DNA from: Chloroflexota bacterium
Lineage (GTDB): Bacteria > Chloroflexota > UBA11872 > VXNJ01
Direction of reading: 5' to 3'
Length of the DNA stretch: 64,000 bases
Assembly (NCBI GenBank): GCA_965218195.1
Contig: OZ244593.1
Span: 436,873-500,872, forward strand
The notes beneath the pieces are model-generated. The model saw only the letters and a program-made list of their open reading frames with translations, had not been told where the DNA came from and searched no databases. A program made the position numbers and the translations under genes. This document shows positions 2,972 to 54,127 of the stretch, one piece after another (position 1 is the first letter of the stretch; each line of letters starts with the position of its first letter).

Positions 2972-4504
2972 CTAGTACGGTCGCTTGGAGCGCTGCTCCT
3001 CGATGGCGGCGTTCATGCTCTCGGCGTACTGCTGGCCCATCTCGACGGACGTTATGTCGTTGGACAGCATCTGGTCCGTAAACTGCCGCAGTTCGCCTAC
3101 GTATACGTCCCAGAGCAAGTAGCCGTTCTGGAAAGCCTTGGTCCACTTGTCGAGTACTTCGAGCGTGACCAGCCCGTTGTCGGCGGCGCTCAGAACCTCC
3201 TTCGCGTATACGCCTTCGGCGGCGGCCTTCTTGGCCGGCGTCTCGAGAGCGACGCCCAGAGTCTCTTGCCCTTCATCCGTCAGCGCGAGGTCATGCATCA
3301 GCTCCCAGGCCTGGTCCGGATACTTCGAGGCGGTGAACATCTCGAAGTTGTTGGCCTGACCACCGCTGGGCCGGCGCCCTGATTCGGCGTTCAGCGGCGG
3401 CATGGTGACGTCCCACGCGAACGGAGGCGGAGATTCCTGAAGGCCCTGAATCCCCCACGACCCGCCTGTCGGGCGCATCCCTATGAGGCCGGCCTTGAAG
3501 ATGTTGCCGCTGGGAGCCGCACCCGGCCTCGGCCAGATCTGATATTTGTAGACGAAGTCGTGCACGAGCTGCATCGCGTCCGTGTAGCCCTCTTTGTACG
3601 TTATGCACTCGTTGTAGAACTGGTCTTCGTCGAACTTGTAGTGCCCGGCGCCAAAGGGCCAGTCGAAGCCGGGAACGAACCCGTTCATCGCGCCCCACTG
3701 AGTCTGCTTGTCCCCGTCGAACTTGTTGAGCTTCTGGGCTATCTCGATCATGTCGTCATAGTTCCAGTTGCCGTCGGCGGCCGGGTACTCGACTCCCGCC
3801 TCGTCAAACAGCTCCTTGTTGAAGTAGGTGATGTCGCCGTCCCAGGTGACGGGCACGGCATAGACCTTGGTCTGGGTAACGTCTCTCAAGCCCTGCCAGA
3901 CTTCGGGATACCACTCGTTGATGTCGAACGTGCTCACCTTGATGTATTCCGTGAGGTCGACAATGATGCCCGCCGCTACCCAGTTTGGGATAACGTCGGG
4001 AACGCTCATCGCCACGTCGGGCGGGTTGCCGGCGGCAATCTGAGTGGCGAGCCGCTGAAGGTGTCCGTTGTAGTTCGAGTATTCGAACTGGACGTTGTGC
4101 CCCGTCTTCAACTCCCAGTCAGCGATGTTGCGGGCATACGCCGCCACCACGCGGTCGCCCCAGACGTAGCTTGCAAGCCGCAGGCTTGCCTTCTCCAGGC
4201 TGGGCTTCGCCACCTCGACGATCTTGGTGACGACCTTCTCGACCTCGACCTCGACCCGCTGGGTTACGACCCTCTCGACTTCCTGGGTAACTACCTTTTC
4301 GACTTCGACGATTCTCTCTTTTTCGACGATCTGGGTGACGACCTTCTCGACCGGCACCTCCTGGGTAACGACCCGGACTACTTCCTTCTCAACGATCTGA
4401 GTTTCTCCGCAGCCGGCCAGAGCGGCCACCGCCGCCAGACCCGCGCCGCCGAGCAATCCGGATCGAACGACCTTGCGCCGGGTCAAACCCTTCTTCTCAT
4501 CCAT
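2972..4504 (-). CDS. extracellular solute-binding lipoprotein (sugar ABC transporter SBP) with Tat-like signal, lipobox and repetitive linker
   Basis: 510 aa; N-terminus 'LTRRKVVRSGLLGGAGLAAVAALAGCGET' (RR motif plus L-A-G-C lipobox) followed by about 70 aa of VEKVVTQ/VEVEVEK repeats, then family-1 SBP fold residues. Confidence 0.8.
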   Translation of the reverse strand: MDEKKGLTRRKVVRSGLLGGAGLAAVAALAGCGETQIVEKEVVRVVTQEVPVEKVVTQIVEKERIVEVEKVVTQEVERVVTQRVEVEVEKVVTKIVEVAKPSLEKASLRLASYVWGDRVVAAYARNIADWELKTGHNVQFEYSNYNGHLQRLATQIAAGNPPDVAMSVPDVIPNWVAAGIIVDLTEYIKVSTFDINEWYPEVWQGLRDVTQTKVYAVPVTWDGDITYFNKELFDEAGVEYPAADGNWNYDDMIEIAQKLNKFDGDKQTQWGAMNGFVPGFDWPFGAGHYKFDEDQFYNECITYKEGYTDAMQLVHDFVYKYQIWPRPGAAPSGNIFKAGLIGMRPTGGSWGIQGLQESPPPFAWDVTMPPLNAESGRRPSGGQANNFEMFTASKYPDQAWELMHDLALTDEGQETLGVALETPAKKAAAEGVYAKEVLSAADNGLVTLEVLDKWTKAFQNGYLLWDVYVGELRQFTDQMLSNDITSVEMGQQYAESMNAAIEEQRSKRPY

Positions 4505-7813: not shown

Positions 7814-9346
7814 TTAGCTTCTCGACCGCCGCACCTTGACCAGCTCGTCCGTGGCGATCTTCTTGACGTTCGCCATGGACTCCGCAGGCTCTTCAAGGCC
7901 TCGGAAGACCTTCTCAACAGCCTTGCCCCACTCGGTCCGGTAGAACGAGCCGATGGGAATCGCCGGCCAGTGCTTCTCACCCTTGTTCTTGAGACCGGTG
8001 AAGAAGTCGAACCATTTGGCGAGACGGTTGTCGGGACCGATGCGCTCAAGCATTCCGTCGATCCACTCCTGCTGCTGCGCCAGGACGGTCGGTCCGTTCA
8101 GCGTGTTGATACCCATCTGGGCGGAGTTGTCGAAGAAGCCGAACTTCATGAACTCCCAAGCTTCCTCAGGGTGCTTGGCGCCGGTCGGTATGCCATACAT
8201 CCAGCCCTGGACCGAGTCCCAAGCACGCTCTGCGGGAGCGCCGGTGGAGGTCGGAAGCAGACTTACAGAGTAGTTGATGTCGGCGGCGTACTTGTCGAGC
8301 GGGTCCTGCGCCCAGAATCCGGTCGACAGGTAAGCGGCCTTACCCAAGGCGAACGGGCTGCCGGGCTTGGAGTAGCCGGGCTGATCCTGCCAGAACGCCG
8401 AAATCTGATTGAAGTCAAGCTCGTTGGAGTAATCCTGGAATCGCTCCAGAAACGCGATGATACCTGGATGGTCTGGGGTGACCGACTGAGTGCCCTCGTC
8501 CCAGAACTCGCCACCGCTCATGAAGGACATGATCTCTCTGCGCCACTGGGGCTGCCAGCCGATTCGCGTGATCTTCGCGCCATCGCGGGTGAGCAGCTTC
8601 AACGAGTGCTCTATCAGCTCGTCTTGCGTGGCCGCGCCTTCGTCCAGGCCGACCTCTTCGTACATGTCCTGGTTTCGGAAGATGGCGACGAAGTCGGCTC
8701 CGCCCGGCAGCGCGTACAACCGGCCCTGATAGGTCGAGGAGTCCCACATCGACTTGATGTACTGGTCGCGGGTTACACCGGCCAGCTTGGCCAACGAATC
8801 GAGCGGCTGGAACACGCCAAGAAATGCAAGGTTGCCCTGGGCGACCCAGTTCGTGTAGGTGGTGTCGGGCGGATCACCGCCGGCCACCGACGTGAGCAGC
8901 TTCTCTTCCCACTTGGGGATGAACTGATAGTCGACCTTGATGTGCGGGAACGCCGCCTCGAAGTCCCTGGCGAGGTTCGACATCAGATCGTTGTACAGCT
9001 CGCCCCAGTTGGCGTTCCAGGCGACGATCGTCACGTCCTTGACCTTCGGCATTGCCTCGACGATCTTGGTTACGACCTTCTCGACCTCTTTGGTTACGAC
9101 CCTCTCGACCTCGACCTCGACCCGCTGGGTTACGACCTTCTCGACCTCGACGACCTTTTCTTTCTCGACGATCTGGGTTACGACCTTCTCGACCGGAACC
9201 TCTTTGATGACTTCCTGGATCTTGGTCTCGGTGACAACCTGAGTCTCACCACATCCGGCAAGCGCCGCCACGGCCGCCAGACCGGCCCCGCCGACCAACC
9301 CGGAACGGATGATCTTGCGTCGGGTTAGACCTTTATCGATGTTCAT
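7814..9346 (-). CDS. extracellular solute-binding lipoprotein (second sugar ABC SBP); paralog of 2972..4504 with near-identical N-terminal 100 aa
   Basis: 510 aa; same Tat-like/lipobox and 'VEKVVTQIVEKE..' linker, diverged mature domain; GGAGG SD 8 nt upstream. Confidence 0.8.
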   Translation of the reverse strand: MNIDKGLTRRKIIRSGLVGGAGLAAVAALAGCGETQVVTETKIQEVIKEVPVEKVVTQIVEKEKVVEVEKVVTQRVEVEVERVVTKEVEKVVTKIVEAMPKVKDVTIVAWNANWGELYNDLMSNLARDFEAAFPHIKVDYQFIPKWEEKLLTSVAGGDPPDTTYTNWVAQGNLAFLGVFQPLDSLAKLAGVTRDQYIKSMWDSSTYQGRLYALPGGADFVAIFRNQDMYEEVGLDEGAATQDELIEHSLKLLTRDGAKITRIGWQPQWRREIMSFMSGGEFWDEGTQSVTPDHPGIIAFLERFQDYSNELDFNQISAFWQDQPGYSKPGSPFALGKAAYLSTGFWAQDPLDKYAADINYSVSLLPTSTGAPAERAWDSVQGWMYGIPTGAKHPEEAWEFMKFGFFDNSAQMGINTLNGPTVLAQQQEWIDGMLERIGPDNRLAKWFDFFTGLKNKGEKHWPAIPIGSFYRTEWGKAVEKVFRGLEEPAESMANVKKIATDELVKVRRSRS

Positions 9347-49044: not shown

Positions 49045-49200
49045 GACTAGGCATCGTCAGCGCTCCATTCGTGCGAAGGAAACCACCGACACCGTCCGGG
49101 GCAGGCATTCTGGCTTCCCGGTTTCCCGGGCTACAGTTGCGCGACAGCGCCGGCTTTCGACCGGCTTCCCCTTAGGCCCGCGCGCGGCGGGCCGACCTCG
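49045..49200 (-). ncRNA. probable cobalamin riboswitch
   Basis: minus-strand read shows 'AAGGGGAAGCCGGTCGAAAGCCGG', 'GCGCTGTCGCGCAACTGTAGCC' and B12-box-like 'GCCAGAATGCCTGCC', in order, upstream of the SBP gene; matched to the Rfam RF00174 consensus from memory. Confidence 0.55.
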
Positions 49201-49294
49201 GACGTTAGTCAGGAGGACTGCTATGGTTTACGCGCCAAGGTTAGCAGGCATACCGGACAGCGACAAAGAAACGTACAGGTCCGGCGCTGATCCG

Positions 49295-49631: not shown

Positions 49632-50465
49632 ATGCCGAAAATGGACCTTGAGACGCGCAGGCGGCGGTGCGTGCGCGTAACGCTCAACGACTTAATCGAA
49701 GGCCTTCGGCGAGTGGGCATTCACGAGGGCGACACGATTTTCTGTCATTCGTCGCTCAGCAAGTTCGGCTACGTCGAGGGCGGCGCGGAAACCGTGGTGG
49801 AGGCGCTTCTACGGGCGGCGGGTCCCGCGGGGACGGTGGCGTCCGCCGCCGGTCAGCCTTCGGCGGACCTGGGGCCGAATCCGGTATTCGACGTTCTAAA
49901 CACCCCTTCCCGGCGCGGGATAATCTCCGAGGCCATTCGCAGGCGCGCCACCGGTCGAAGTCGCCATCTGGTCGATTCGATTTCGGCGCTCGGCCCGGCG
50001 GCGGAGTATTTGACCAGCACCCACTCAGTCACGAACTGCGGTGCCAAAAGCCCCTATCAAAAGCTGATGACGAGCGACGCTCAGATACTCTTGCTCGGGG
50101 TTTCGCACAATTCCAATACGACTTTCGAGGCCATCGAAGAGGAAATGGCGCGCTCATACGTCAAGTTCAGAGAGCTTCCCGGAGTGCGGATCATCGACGA
50201 AGATGGTCAAGAGCGCGCGCTGCCTACCAGGTTGCACGACTTCGAATACCCTTACGACTTCAACCGGATGAACGCCGGTCTGATTCGCGCCGGCGCTCAA
50301 ACCGAGATAGTGATCGGCGAGGCGATTGTGCGCCGGGTCTCAGCGGCGCGAATGCGTCAGGTCGTGAAAGAGGCCATCGAAGCCAACAGCTTTGCGCTCA
50401 GACTGCGGCAGGGCCAGCAACCGCTACCCGAAATCCCCACAAGCATCCACGACCTGCCGGCGTAG
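49632..50465 (+). CDS. AAC(3)-family aminoglycoside N-acetyltransferase-like protein
   Basis: 'LIEGLRRVGIHEGDTIFCHSSLSKFGYVEGGAETVVEALLRAAGPAGTV' matches AAC(3)/Antibiotic_NAT N-terminal motif. Confidence 0.65.
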   Translation: MPKMDLETRRRRCVRVTLNDLIEGLRRVGIHEGDTIFCHSSLSKFGYVEGGAETVVEALLRAAGPAGTVASAAGQPSADLGPNPVFDVLNTPSRRGIISEAIRRRATGRSRHLVDSISALGPAAEYLTSTHSVTNCGAKSPYQKLMTSDAQILLLGVSHNSNTTFEAIEEEMARSYVKFRELPGVRIIDEDGQERALPTRLHDFEYPYDFNRMNAGLIRAGAQTEIVIGEAIVRRVSAARMRQVVKEAIEANSFALRLRQGQQPLPEIPTSIHDLPA

Positions 50466-50813
50466 CGCTTTGCCGTCGGATGCCGCAAATGTCTCGGGCG
50501 GCCCGTGTTTCCGGAACGGCGCGTTACGCCGGCGCCTGAATCAGCAGCCCGCGCTCACGGCGTAACGCCCGTAGGCAGCCAAGTGCGGGCGCTGCCGATC
50601 CTCTGTAAAAAGACAGTTGGACTAGTAGAAAGTAGAAGAGCGGGCCGTAGCCCGCCTTCTCATTTTGTGCCTAAATGGCTTGTCAACGGCTGGATCATCG
50701 CGCCGCCAAGCGACGCTCCCCAAAGCCCCCGATCTCCCATCGGCGAAACTGCCACGTTAGCCGCTTGGCATCGTCAAATACAATATATCAACTAGACCAG
50801 CCTTTCAATCCTT

Positions 50814-51505
50814 GTGAGACACCATGTGGACGCAACCGCTAAAGACGGCTTGAAGTACAGGCTGGGCCTCGATCTCGGAACAAATCCCATAGGCTTGGCC
50901 GCCGTCAAACTCGACGATAGCAGCGAGTCTTGTGGGGTGCTGGATTTGGGTGTCCGCGTGTTCTCGGACGGGCGCAATCCGAAGGACGACTCATCGCTCG
51001 CCGTGCAGCGGCGCACCGAGCTACTAGACACGCTCGTCGCCTGCGGCCTCATGCCGCCGGATGAAGAAGCTCGCCAAGACTTGGCGCGGCTCGATCCGTA
51101 CCAGCTTAGAGAGCGTGCTCTAGACCAGCCACTACCTCCTTTTGAGCTAGGCTGTGCTCTCGTTCATCTAAACCAGCGGCGCGGCTTCAAGTCCAACCGC
51201 AAGGCGGGTGCCAGCGACGATGAAAGCAAAACCCGGGCTGACATGGATGCGCTGGGCGAGTTTCTGGCGCGGCGGCGGGCGAAGAGCCTTTTGGTGCGCG
51301 CCCGGCCGGGTTTGGGGACCTACCCGGACCGGTCCCTGTACGAGGCCGAATTCGATGCCATTCGCCACGCGCAGACGCCTCACCACACGCTGCGCGAGGA
51401 CCAGTGGGAATCGCTCAAGGACATCACCTTGTGCCAGCGTCCACTAAAGCCCGTCGATCCTGGATGGTGCCTGCTTGAGGCGGGAGAGCGGCGGCCTGGA
51501 CGGCT
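50814..51505 (+). pseudogene. type II-C Cas9 N-terminal remnant (RuvC-I plus part of REC lobe; bridge helix missing)
   Basis: 'YRLGLDLGTNPIGLAAV', 'VLDLGVRVF', 'SLAVQRR', 'ALVHLNQRRGFKSNRK', 'ITLCQRPL' align colinearly with NmeCas9-like residues 10-330 (NmeCas9 sequence recalled from memory); ORF then changes frame. Confidence 0.55.
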
Positions 51506-52555
51506 ATGGGAGAGGCGTTTCGCTGGGTGGAGCCTCACCAGCGGTCGTGGGTCGAGTCGAAACCCGTATGGCATATCGCCGTGTTGGTAAACATCCCGCA
51601 CGACCAGTTGACGCCGCAGAAACCGGGCGAGGCCACACCCCAACGGGTACTGGCCGCGTACGACCAGATGCTGCTCGAGCGTCACAAGCAGTTCGACTTG
51701 GTAGATGAAACGTGCCTGCTCGAGTCGCTAGACGACTTCAAAATACTGGTGCTGCCGGAGGACGTGGTCCTCAGCGACGCGGTTGAGGAGCGCATACAGG
51801 AATGGGTCAGCGCGGGCGGCCGCCTTCTCGGAGTGGGTTTGGGATTCTCGAACGGGCGCGGCGGGCATGGTTGGGAGGACGTTTTCGGTCTGGAGTTTAC
51901 CGACATCGCCCCGTACTCGGTCTTCTACTACAGATTGGGCAAGCGCATCGCGGGAGACTGCGGCGATAGGCCGCTAGTGATCTCGCAGCCGGTGGCCAAG
52001 GCGCGTGCGACTACCGCCGAGCCACTCGCGGACGCCTGGTTTCCGCTTCTGGAAAGATTGTCCGACCGGTTTTTCAGTCACGTGAACGCGCCGCCGTATC
52101 AGAAGAGTCCGTACTCGGGAATCAGCCGCAACGGCTTCGGCGAGGGACAGGCTATTTTTGTTGCGACCGACATGGGGCGGGAGTTTCTCGTCAAGGACCA
52201 CGTGTGGGTAAGGGACATTCTTGCGAATACCCTCGACCTCCTCGACGACGTTTCACCCTGGACCGTAGACGCTAGTCCCTCACTAGAAGGCAGCCTCATG
52301 CGGGCCGGCGGCGACCTTCTCCTGCACCTGACTTTCTATCACGCCGAGCGCTCGCTCATGGGCGGTGGCCATCCGCCCACCGAGTGGGCGCCGCCGGTAC
52401 GCGGCATCGGCGTGACGGTTAAGGCCCCCACAGCGGAGTCGGTGACCTGGGAACCCGATGGAGACGAGCTACCCTTCGAGCGGCAGGGCGATTACATCCA
52501 CGTCGAGTTACCCGAACTGAAAATCCACGGCATCGTGCGCGTGCAAAACGGCTGA
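51506..52555 (+). pseudogene. GH42 beta-galactosidase C-terminal fragment (trimerisation and C-terminal domains only)
   Basis: 'HIAVLVNIPH', 'FKILVLPEDVVLSDAVEERIQEWVSAGGRLLG' typical of GH42 domain B; catalytic TIM barrel absent. Confidence 0.55.
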
Positions 52556-54054: not shown

Positions 54055-54127
54055 CGCGCCCGGAGGGATTCGAACCCCCGACCCCTGGTTCCGAAGACCA
54101 ATGCTCTATCCGCTGAGCTACGGGCGC
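54055..54127 (-). tRNA. tRNA-Arg (anticodon TCG)
   Basis: minus strand: acceptor GCGCCCG/CGGGCGC, D-arm, anticodon stem TTGGT/ACCAG loop CTTCGGA, T-loop TTCGAAT. Confidence 0.8.

What the first reader, a model, noticed from the sequence alone, without database searches (positions are those of the whole stretch)
50814..52555. Decayed type II-C Cas9 N-terminus joined out of frame to a GH42 beta-galactosidase C-terminal fragment; no CRISPR array
Residues align colinearly with Cas9 RuvC-I ('YRLGLDLGTNPIGLAAV'), 'VLDLGVRVF', 'SLAVQRR' and REC-lobe motifs ('ALVHLNQRRGFKSNRK', 'ITLCQRPL'). The Arg-rich bridge helix between 'QRR' and the REC helix is missing, and the conserved Trp of 'GWAV' is Leu. 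At about 51500 the reading frame jumps into a GH42 trimerisation domain ('HIAVL...ILVLPED'). This looks like a deletion scar of a former CRISPR-Cas9 locus. It could alternatively be a domesticated fragment.
Basis: partly seen in the sequence, partly recalled or inferred. Interest (0 to 1): 0.7.

Follow-up and report, generated by a model that had tools for sequence, protein, structure and literature searches.

The report
Deletion scar of a CRISPR-Cas9 locus
This is the leftover stump of a bacterial CRISPR-Cas9 immune system: one roughly 10-kb deletion fused the first fifth of cas9, out of frame, to the back half of a sugar-cleaving enzyme gene, which is ordinary genome decay and not a new system.

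Summary

- **Cas9 stump.** Window 50826-51494 (+) encodes residues 1-248 of a ~1070-aa type II-C Cas9 (NCBIfam TIGR01865, E 2.6e-24; 64% identical to a full-length Cas9).
- **Junction.** At 51489-51494, a 5-6 nt microhomology (C)GGCGG joins it out of frame to the C-terminal half of a ~670-aa glycoside hydrolase. That enzyme is GH151-like (alpha-L-fucosidase type, Pfam GHL6 at the N-terminus), not GH42. Its catalytic domain is missing.
- **Sister strain.** A strain with 97-99% identical flanks carries tracrRNA-cas9-cas1-cas2 and a 2-repeat array at the same site.
- **More distant relative.** A ~90% identical relative has a CRISPR array with the same repeat core, then five genes, then a longer copy of the hydrolase gene.
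- **Missing parts.** No cas1, cas2, Cas9 C-terminus or CRISPR array is left in the 64 kb.
- **New finding.** The cognate tracrRNA gene survives upstream on the minus strand (~50772-50630).
- **Decay.** The stump breaks 10 of 53 near-invariant Cas9 positions, including loss of the bridge helix. The hydrolase remnant evolves under relaxed constraint.
- **Verdict.** Domestication is unlikely.

The parts
50630..50772 (-). Retained tracrRNA gene of the lost type II-C system. The ends are predicted: start about 7 nt after the -10 box, end after the U-tract.
   Evidence: A single reverse-oriented copy of the CRISPR repeat core lies 84-216 nt upstream of cas9 in 20 loci (five of them strains or relatives of the window's own lineage) and in the window. 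The module is conserved in an 18-locus alignment. The 3' hairpin covaries, with 7 pairs changed on both sides. No Rfam family matched.
50780..50808 (-). Sigma-70-like promoter for the tracrRNA (TTGAAA, 17 nt spacer, TATTGT).
   Evidence: It is the only promoter-like site in 50400-51700, against 0.2 expected from shuffles. This is a consensus match only.
50725..50750 (-). Anti-repeat, 5' block (AGTTTCGCCGATGGGAGATCGGGGGC). It is complementary to the crRNA sense of the repeat GTTGCGGCTAGCCCCCGATCTCCCATCGGCTAAACT found in relatives.
   Evidence: 25 of 26 bases match the repeat of L014, L024, L027, L003 and L085. A ~32-nt hairpin insertion (50693-50724) follows, then the second anti-repeat block CAGCCG (50687-50692). 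The same layout occurs in the intact loci L014, L009, L028, L012 and L084.
50679..50689 (-). Conserved tracrRNA motif after the anti-repeat, CCGTTGACAAG, carrying an A-to-G change (plus-strand position 50684).
   Evidence: All 17 other aligned loci have A at this position; the full motif CCGTTAACAAG is present in 16 of them (L027 has CCGCTAACAAG).
50639..50656 (-). tracrRNA terminator hairpin followed by a U-rich tail. It has a 1-nt bulge compared with L084 and L001.
   Evidence: Terminator scan, alignment and covariation.
50826..51494 (+). Cas9 N-terminal remnant (RuvC-I motif and part of the REC lobe), equivalent to residues 1-248 of a 1068-aa type II-C Cas9. ORF callers start it at GTG 50814; relatives start at the equivalent of GTG 50826.
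51003..51004 (+). Site of the 48-nt in-frame deletion that removed the Arg-rich bridge helix. It lies between two QRR-coding near-repeats (CAGCGCCGC and CAACGCCGC in L001).
   Evidence: Six of the ten violated conserved columns lie here.
51251..51252 (+). Site of a second in-frame deletion (12 aa, RKAIDESGARTL in L014) in the REC part.
51489..51494 (+). Deletion junction with microhomology (C)GGCGG, shared by the cas9 side and the hydrolase side.
   Evidence: Three-way comparison of L084 (cas9), the window and L003 (hydrolase). The junction is identical in L001 and L002.
51495..51590 (+). Out-of-frame tail of the cas9 ORF. It reads hydrolase DNA in the wrong frame until a stop codon.
   Evidence: The tail is identical in P0001 and P0002 and has no Cas9 homology.
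51489..52555 (+). C-terminal half (central Rossmann-like / GH42M-like domain plus C-terminal beta-sandwich) of a GH151-like/GHL6 glycoside hydrolase. The catalytic barrel is missing. Possible starts are ATG 51506 or GTG 51581.
   Evidence: Homologues of 650-700 aa align from their residue ~320 to the end. Full-length homologues carry PF14871 GHL6 at the N-terminus. 6TVK residues 381-686 match. dN/dS is 0.63 against 0.17-0.19 in the neighbouring genes.

Best explanation
The locus is a non-functional deletion scar.

- **Inferred ancestral order.** AAC(3) - tracrRNA (minus strand) - cas9 - cas1 - cas2 - CRISPR array - about 6 kb of sugar-metabolism genes - GH151-like hydrolase - MFS transporter - rpsT.
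- **The event.** One illegitimate recombination at a 5-6 nt microhomology, (C)GGCGG, removed everything from cas9 codon ~228 to hydrolase codon ~320. That is about 10 kb or more, depending on array length.
- **What was left.** The tracrRNA gene, the first fifth of cas9, and the non-catalytic half of the hydrolase, fused out of frame.
- **Later decay.** The cas9 stump then lost its bridge helix, lost 12 more residues and took substitutions at near-invariant positions. The hydrolase remnant drifted under relaxed constraint.
- **Spread.** The scar is polymorphic in the population. One sister strain still has the cas operon. Another (L001) carries the same junction, but its left part has been overwritten by recombination with the intact allele.

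Shown here: homologies, junction, synteny, decay counts and the recombinant pattern. Inferred: the ancestral gene order (a composite of L085 and L003), the order of events, and the lack of function.
For: - **Cas9 identity and extent.**
- **Hydrolase is a C-terminal half.**. The 6TVK catalytic domain is residues 1-336 with D154 and E235 (PMC10154630).
- **Junction and microhomology.**
- **Not an assembly artefact.** The same scar occurs in five independent assemblies: three long contigs (3.59 Mb, 3.235 Mb and 3.243 Mb) and two short ones (27.7 kb and 9.5 kb).
- **Sister strain.** L085 has AAC(3)-tracr-cas9-cas1-cas2-2 repeats-MFS at the same site, with flanks 96.8-98.7% identical.
- **More distant relative.** L003 has a CRISPR array with the same repeat core ~5.9 kb upstream of a longer hydrolase copy.
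- **No other remnants.** No other cas remnants or array in the window.
- **Decay of the stump.** 10 of 53 near-invariant columns are violated, against a mean of 0.67 and a maximum of 4 in 70 full-length Cas9s.
- **Relaxed constraint on the hydrolase remnant.** dN/dS 0.63 against 0.165 and 0.185 in the neighbours, Fisher p 0.005. Neutrality is not rejected (p 0.28).
- **L001 is recombinant.** It is L085-type to the left of ~51430 and window-type to the right of it, including the junction.
Against: - The cas9 stump is still one open frame. All three internal gaps relative to L014 (16, 2 and 12 aa) are in frame, with no stop codon.
- The RuvC-I catalytic Asp is kept.
- The tracrRNA keeps a promoter-like site and a terminator.
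- The hydrolase remnant's dN/dS is below 1, although only 30 substitutions were counted.
- The ancestral order is assembled from two different relatives. No single genome with the complete undeleted arrangement was found.
- L085's cas9 has two frameshifts. They could be long-read errors at 12x coverage or real decay.
- Only 64 kb of the host genome was searched.
Confidence: 0.9

Rival explanations
1. Domesticated module. The Cas9 N-terminal fragment and/or the orphan tracrRNA are kept because they do something. Examples would be a regulatory small RNA, a guide-RNA-binding decoy acting on incoming type II-C systems, or a tracrRNA supply for a second Cas9 elsewhere in the genome.
For: - The ORF is open over 258 codons, and the three internal gaps are all in frame.
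- The catalytic Asp of RuvC-I is retained.
- The tracrRNA has a promoter-like site and an intact-looking terminator.
- The scar persists in five assemblies, and in L001 the stump was 'refreshed' by recombination.
Against: - 10 of 53 near-invariant positions are lost, including the whole bridge helix that contacts guide RNA.
- The last 32 codons are out-of-frame hydrolase sequence.
- A tracrRNA position that is A in all 17 other aligned loci is mutated, and the terminator stem has acquired a bulge.
- There is no family of similarly truncated proteins. 70 of the 82 Cas9-bearing loci examined have uninterrupted ORFs of at least 1000 aa from the match start. Of the short database hits read, most end at a contig end or in a divergent tail that looks frameshifted.
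- In a 60-65% GC genome, long open frames are easily kept by chance.
Confidence: 0.05
2. Partial acquisition rather than deletion. A fragment consisting of tracrRNA plus the cas9 5' end was inserted by horizontal transfer into the hydrolase gene, and the lineage never had a full locus here.
For: - The window's cas9 allele is only ~75% identical in DNA to the sister strains' allele, although the flanks are ~98% identical. This shows allelic exchange at this site.
Against: - A sister strain has the full operon at exactly this site, between the same flanking genes.
- The relative L003 has the matching CRISPR array upstream of the hydrolase.
- An insertion would not remove the hydrolase N-terminal half or the genes found between the array and the hydrolase in L003.
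- The junction has the microhomology typical of a deletion.
Confidence: 0.03
3. Assembly chimera or sequencing artefact that joined two unrelated regions.
For: Several related contigs come from low-coverage long-read assemblies that carry frameshift errors (3x for L003, 5x for L002, 12x for L085).
Against: The identical junction is present in five independent assemblies, three of them 3.2-3.6 Mb contigs, with conserved synteny on both sides.
Confidence: 0.01

Closest known systems
Type II-C CRISPR-Cas9 loci (Cas9 of the TIGR01865 family; solved examples matched here include 9AR4, 8JTJ and 6JDV)
   Same: - The RuvC-I motif (YRLGLDLGTN) and the REC-lobe helices are colinear with type II-C Cas9.
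- A cognate tracrRNA with an anti-repeat lies next to cas9.
- Relatives have cas9-cas1-cas2 plus an array of 36-nt repeats with ~30-nt spacers.
   Different: - Only residues 1-248 of ~1070 remain.
- The bridge helix, RuvC-II/III, HNH and the PAM-interacting part are absent.
- cas1, cas2 and the array are absent.
- It is a remnant, not a working member.
GH151 alpha-L-fucosidase (ALfuk2, PDB 6TVK) / Pfam GHL6 (PF14871) proteins with a GH42M-like central domain
   Same: - The remnant aligns to 6TVK residues 381-686, which are the central Rossmann-fold domain and the C-terminal domain. It also aligns to residues ~320-670 of ~670-aa homologues.
- Full-length homologues match 6TVK end to end, E 4.5e-51.
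   Different: - The N-terminal (beta/alpha)8 catalytic domain is missing (6TVK residues 1-336, with nucleophile D154 and acid/base E235; PMC10154630).
- Identity to the family is only ~30-37%.
GH42 beta-galactosidase
   Same: The central domain hits Pfam Glyco_hydro_42M (E 4e-7) and weakly matches GH42 chains (E ~0.007).
   Different: - Full-length homologues carry GHL6, not the GH42 catalytic domain.
- They match a GH151 structure far better than GH42 structures.
IscB / OMEGA RuvC nucleases
   Same: They share the RuvC-I fold ancestry with Cas9 (general knowledge).
   Different: - All significant hits are bona fide Cas9 at up to 64-69% identity.
- REC-lobe segments specific to Cas9 are present.
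- No IscB-type hit appeared in NCBIfam or Pfam.

Membership tests
Functional type II-C Cas9 | RuvC-I motif with catalytic Asp | tested here: met
   LGLDLGTN is retained, but the adjacent near-invariant Ser and Trp are changed (S25P, W28L).
Functional type II-C Cas9 | Arg-rich bridge helix | tested here: not met
   A 16-aa in-frame deletion removes it. Six conserved Arg/Asp columns are lost.
Functional type II-C Cas9 | RuvC-II/III, HNH and C-terminal PAM-interacting region | tested here: not met
   tblastn with full-length Cas9 from L014, L024 and L084 finds only residues 1-248/262 in the window and nothing else at E < 0.1.
Type II CRISPR-Cas locus | Adjacent cas1 and cas2 | tested here: not met
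   No tblastn hit in the 64 kb. They are present in relatives L014, L084 and L085.
Type II CRISPR-Cas locus | CRISPR array | tested here: not met
   No array was found by TRF, direct-repeat search or repeat-core search in the window. The rest of the genome was not searchable.
Type II CRISPR-Cas locus | tracrRNA with an anti-repeat complementary to the repeat | tested here: met
   25 of 26 bases match the relatives' repeat. The downstream motif and the covarying terminator are conserved. One position that is A in all 17 other aligned loci is mutated. Expression was not tested.
GH151 / GHL6 glycoside hydrolase | N-terminal (beta/alpha)8 catalytic domain with nucleophile and acid/base | tested here: not met
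   Family homology starts at homologue residue ~317-331. There is no GHL6 hit in the window ORF.
GH151 / GHL6 glycoside hydrolase | Central GH42M-like/Rossmann domain and C-terminal beta-sandwich | tested here: met
   PF08532 E 4e-7. 6TVK residues 381-686 align.
GH42 beta-galactosidase | GH42 catalytic domain in full-length relatives | tested here: not met
   Full-length homologues P0123-P0125 carry GHL6 with weak Alpha_L_fucos hits, not Glyco_hydro_42.

The most novel reading that the evidence does not exclude
The orphan tracrRNA keeps a promoter-like site and a terminator. Together with the still-open Cas9 N-terminal ORF, it might be retained as a working module after loss of the rest of the system. 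It could act as a stand-alone regulatory small RNA, as a tracrRNA donor for another Cas9 in the genome, or as a guide-RNA-binding decoy against incoming type II-C systems.
Probability: 0.04. Interest if true: 0.6.

Novelty: already known. Interest (0 to 1): 0.15.

Why it matters
- **Annotation.** The 258-aa and 324/349-aa ORFs should be flagged as pseudogene fragments, not as 'hypothetical proteins' or 'Cas9'. This genome should not be counted as carrying a type II system on the strength of this hit.
- **Population snapshot.** It is a small, clean example of CRISPR-Cas loss within one population. An intact operon, a microhomology deletion scar and a recombinant scar coexist at one site.
- **Limits.** It opens no new question and reveals no new mechanism.

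Tried and rejected
- **A family of mini Cas9 N-terminal proteins.** I considered this because the 120 best database hits were all shorter than 450 aa. I rejected it. 70 of the 82 Cas9-bearing loci examined have uninterrupted ORFs of at least 1000 aa from the match start. Of the short hits read, most end at a contig end or in a divergent tail that looks frameshifted.
- **Pfam on the Cas9 fragment.** No hit. Only NCBIfam and PDB sequence searches recognised it.
- **Rfam.** No tracrRNA or CRISPR-DR family matched at the gathering threshold or at E <= 10. I identified the tracrRNA by comparison with relatives instead.
- **Word-indexed homologue search on the hydrolase ORF.** It found only 2 proteins. 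The exhaustive HMMER search was needed to find the family.
- **Neutral decay as the cause of the divergence between window and L001.** I rejected this. The flanks are ~98% identical, while the cas9 part is ~75% identical and carries allele-specific indels that match other natural alleles. The three-way alignment shows a recombination breakpoint near 51430.
- **Literature search.** A search for truncated cas9, cas9 pseudogene or degenerate CRISPR together with type II-C and tracrRNA returned nothing.
- **Host organism.** Not determined. The nearest cas9 loci are from Dehalococcoidia/Chloroflexota metagenome-assembled genomes, so a Chloroflexota host is only an inference.

Full report
**1. Observation**

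ORF 50814-51590 (+, 258 aa) and ORF 51506-52555 (+, 349 aa) exist, in different frames, and overlap by 85 nt.

The first ORF is Cas9-like well beyond chance:
- NCBIfam TIGR01865 (cas_Csn1), E 2.6e-24.
- Solved type II-C Cas9 chains, down to E 2.6e-13.
- 417 database homologues, those that carry a name being called Cas9/Csn1.
- A full-length Cas9 from locus L014 aligns by residues 1-248 of 1068 to window 50850-51503, at 64% identity and E 1e-86.

Pfam gave no hit for this ORF.

A 16-aa bridge-helix segment is missing as a 48-nt in-frame gap, and the conserved Trp of GTNSIGWA is Leu.

**2. How decayed is the stump?**

I aligned the N-terminal 300 aa of 70 full-length relatives, each with an uninterrupted ORF of at least 1000 aa from the match start. 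53 columns within the fragment span are at least 95% conserved.

| Sequence | Conserved columns violated (of 53) |
|---|---|
| Window fragment | 10 (S25P, W28L, R114C, F117V, and six Arg/Asp columns in the deleted bridge helix) |
| Full-length proteins | mean 0.67, maximum 4 |
| L001 fragment | 1 |

Relative to L014 there are three gaps (16, 2 and 12 aa). All are in frame, and there is no internal stop.

**3. The downstream piece**

- An exhaustive HMMER search found 739 homologues. They are typically 650-700 aa, and the window ORF aligns to their residues ~320-670. tblastn starts at homologue residue 317-331, at window 51491-51506.
- Full-length homologues carry Pfam GHL6 (PF14871) at the N-terminus and a GH42M-like central domain.
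- They match PDB 6TVK, named alpha-L-fucosidase, end to end (E 4.5e-51).
- The window ORF itself matches 6TVK residues 381-686 (E 1.2e-9), against E ~0.007 for GH42 beta-galactosidases.
- 6TVK is the GH151 enzyme ALfuk2. Its catalytic domain is residues 1-336 (nucleophile D154, acid/base E235), its Rossmann-fold domain 341-558 and its C-terminal domain 560-660 (PMC10154630).

So the remnant is the non-catalytic half of a GH151-like enzyme. 'GH42' is a near miss at the domain level.

**4. The junction**

- DNA homology to a relative's cas9 (L084) ends at window 51494.
- Homology to a relative's hydrolase gene (L003) begins at 51489.
- The three sequences read as follows:
  - cas9 side: ...GGGAGAG-TGGCGG-GCGGCC...
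  - window: ...GGGAGAG-CGGCGG-CCTGGA...
  - hydrolase side: ...TGGAAC-CGGCGG-CCTGGA...
- This is a 5-6 nt microhomology, typical of an illegitimate-recombination deletion.

**5. Related genomes**

| Locus | Relationship to the window | Arrangement at the site |
|---|---|---|
| L002 | ~98.5% identical | Encodes the identical 258-aa fragment, same scar |
| L001 | ~98% identical flanks, 3.24-Mb contig | Same junction and same out-of-frame tail; 294-aa fragment with the bridge helix intact |
| L085 | Flanks 96.8-98.7% identical, 97-kb contig | AAC(3) - tracrRNA - cas9 (colinear with residues 1-1082, but with two frameshifts) - cas1 - cas2 - two repeats with one spacer - MFS; no hydrolase remnant |
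| L003 | ~90% identical | Contig begins in a CRISPR array (at least 6 copies of a repeat with the same core as L014, L024 and L027), then five genes (ADH, aldo-keto reductase, SBP, GFO/IDH/MocA, GIY-YIG), then a hydrolase copy reaching back to family residue ~145, then MFS |

With two further contigs found by cluster look-up, the scar is present in five assemblies in all.

The composite of L085 and L003 gives the inferred ancestral order. It puts the deletion at about 3.9 kb (rest of cas9, cas1, cas2 and a minimal array) plus 5.9 kb, so roughly 10 kb or more. This order is an inference. No single genome with the whole undeleted arrangement was recovered.

**6. Nothing else of the system is left in the window**

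- No cas1, cas2 or Cas9 C-terminal hit at E < 0.1, and none of L003's five intervening genes.
- No CRISPR array by TRF, spaced direct-repeat search or repeat-core search.
- Rfam finds only four tRNAs and a cobalamin riboswitch.

**7. A retained tracrRNA gene (new)**

- In 20 loci (five of them strains or relatives of the window's own lineage), one reverse-oriented copy of the repeat core lies 84-216 nt upstream of cas9. The window has exactly one such copy, at 50726-50743, 88 nt upstream of the ORF start.
- An 18-locus alignment shows a conserved module: the anti-repeat, the motif CCGTTAACAAG (16 of the 17 other loci; one has CCGCTAACAAG), a short stem, and a GC-rich terminator hairpin with a U-tract.
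- RNAalifold finds 7 hairpin pairs kept through changes on both sides.
- The window copy has a sigma-70-like promoter (-35 at 50808, -10 ending at 50780; the only such site in 1.3 kb, against 0.2 expected) and a terminator at 50656-50639.
- It also shows decay. It carries an A-to-G change at a motif position that is A in all 17 other aligned loci, and a 1-nt bulge in the terminator stem.

**8. Mosaic alleles**

- Window and L001 differ by ~25% across most of the cas9 fragment and by 11% in the tracrRNA region, although the flanks are ~98% identical.
- A four-way alignment shows that L001 follows the L085 allele up to about window 51430. It then switches to the window allele for the last ~65 nt of cas9 and for the junction. 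L085 differs from the other two at many positions across that stretch.
- The simplest reading is that the deletion arose on the window-type allele. L001 then arose by homologous recombination between the scar haplotype and an intact L085-type haplotype.
- This explains why the L001 stump looks undecayed.
- A deletion in an already mosaic cas9 cannot be excluded.

**9. Selection**

- Between the window and L001, the hydrolase remnant has 20 non-synonymous and 10 synonymous changes (dN/dS 0.63). AAC(3) has 0.165 and MFS 0.185.
- The Fisher test gives p = 0.005. Neutrality is not rejected (p = 0.28), while an omega of 0.18 is rejected (p = 0.0009).
- Counts are small.

**10. Verdict**

- This is an ordinary, well-supported deletion scar of a type II-C CRISPR-Cas9 locus. 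Confidence is about 0.9.
- The domestication alternative keeps a few percent. The frame is open, the gaps are in frame, and the tracrRNA looks able to be transcribed.
- Against that, the bridge helix and other near-invariant residues are lost, the tail is out of frame, and no family of similar truncated proteins exists.
- The host organism was not determined. The nearest cas9 loci come from Dehalococcoidia/Chloroflexota metagenome-assembled genomes.

Noticed in passing
window 49083-49215 (-): A cobalamin riboswitch (Rfam RF00174, 52 bits) lies upstream of the minus-strand ABC transporter genes (Peripla_BP_2 / FecCD / ABC_tran in the gene calls of L002 and L085). This is consistent with a B12-regulated uptake operon.
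   Followed up: no
window 4215-4360 and 9009-9202: Two clusters of 24/36-nt tandem repeats about 4.7 kb apart share the same unit (TCGACGATCTTGGTGACGACCTTCTCGACC...). They probably encode a repeated peptide motif in two paralogous genes.
   Followed up: no
window 50693-50724 (-); also L001, L084, L014, L009, L028, L012: In a subset of these type II-C loci the tracrRNA anti-repeat is interrupted by a ~30-nt insertion. In the window's copy, inspected by eye, it can form its own hairpin (GCGUCGC-UUG-GCGGCGC). Other loci (for example L024, L011, L017) lack the insertion. I have not seen this tracrRNA variant described.
   Followed up: partly
L085 14632-14735 versus L003 1-395 and 7412: The sister strain that still has the cas operon has only two repeats and one spacer. 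It also lacks the ~7 kb (five genes plus the hydrolase) that L003 has between the array and the MFS gene. This is a second, independent deletion (or an insertion in L003) ending exactly at the last repeat.
   Followed up: partly
L003 5156-5383 (-) and 5794-7401: In the ~90% identical relative the hydrolase gene also lacks its first ~145 residues, and a small GIY-YIG-like ORF sits just upstream. The hydrolase may therefore already have been a pseudogene before the cas9-hydrolase deletion. The contig has only 3x coverage, so its frameshifts are unreliable.
   Followed up: partly
window 50518-50570 (+): By eye, there is an inverted repeat (GCGTTACGCC ... GGCGTAACGC) between the AAC(3) stop codon and the tracrRNA terminator. 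Its role is unknown; it could be a terminator or a REP-like element.
   Followed up: no
window 54055-54127 (-): A tRNA gene lies between the MFS gene and rpsT.
   Followed up: no
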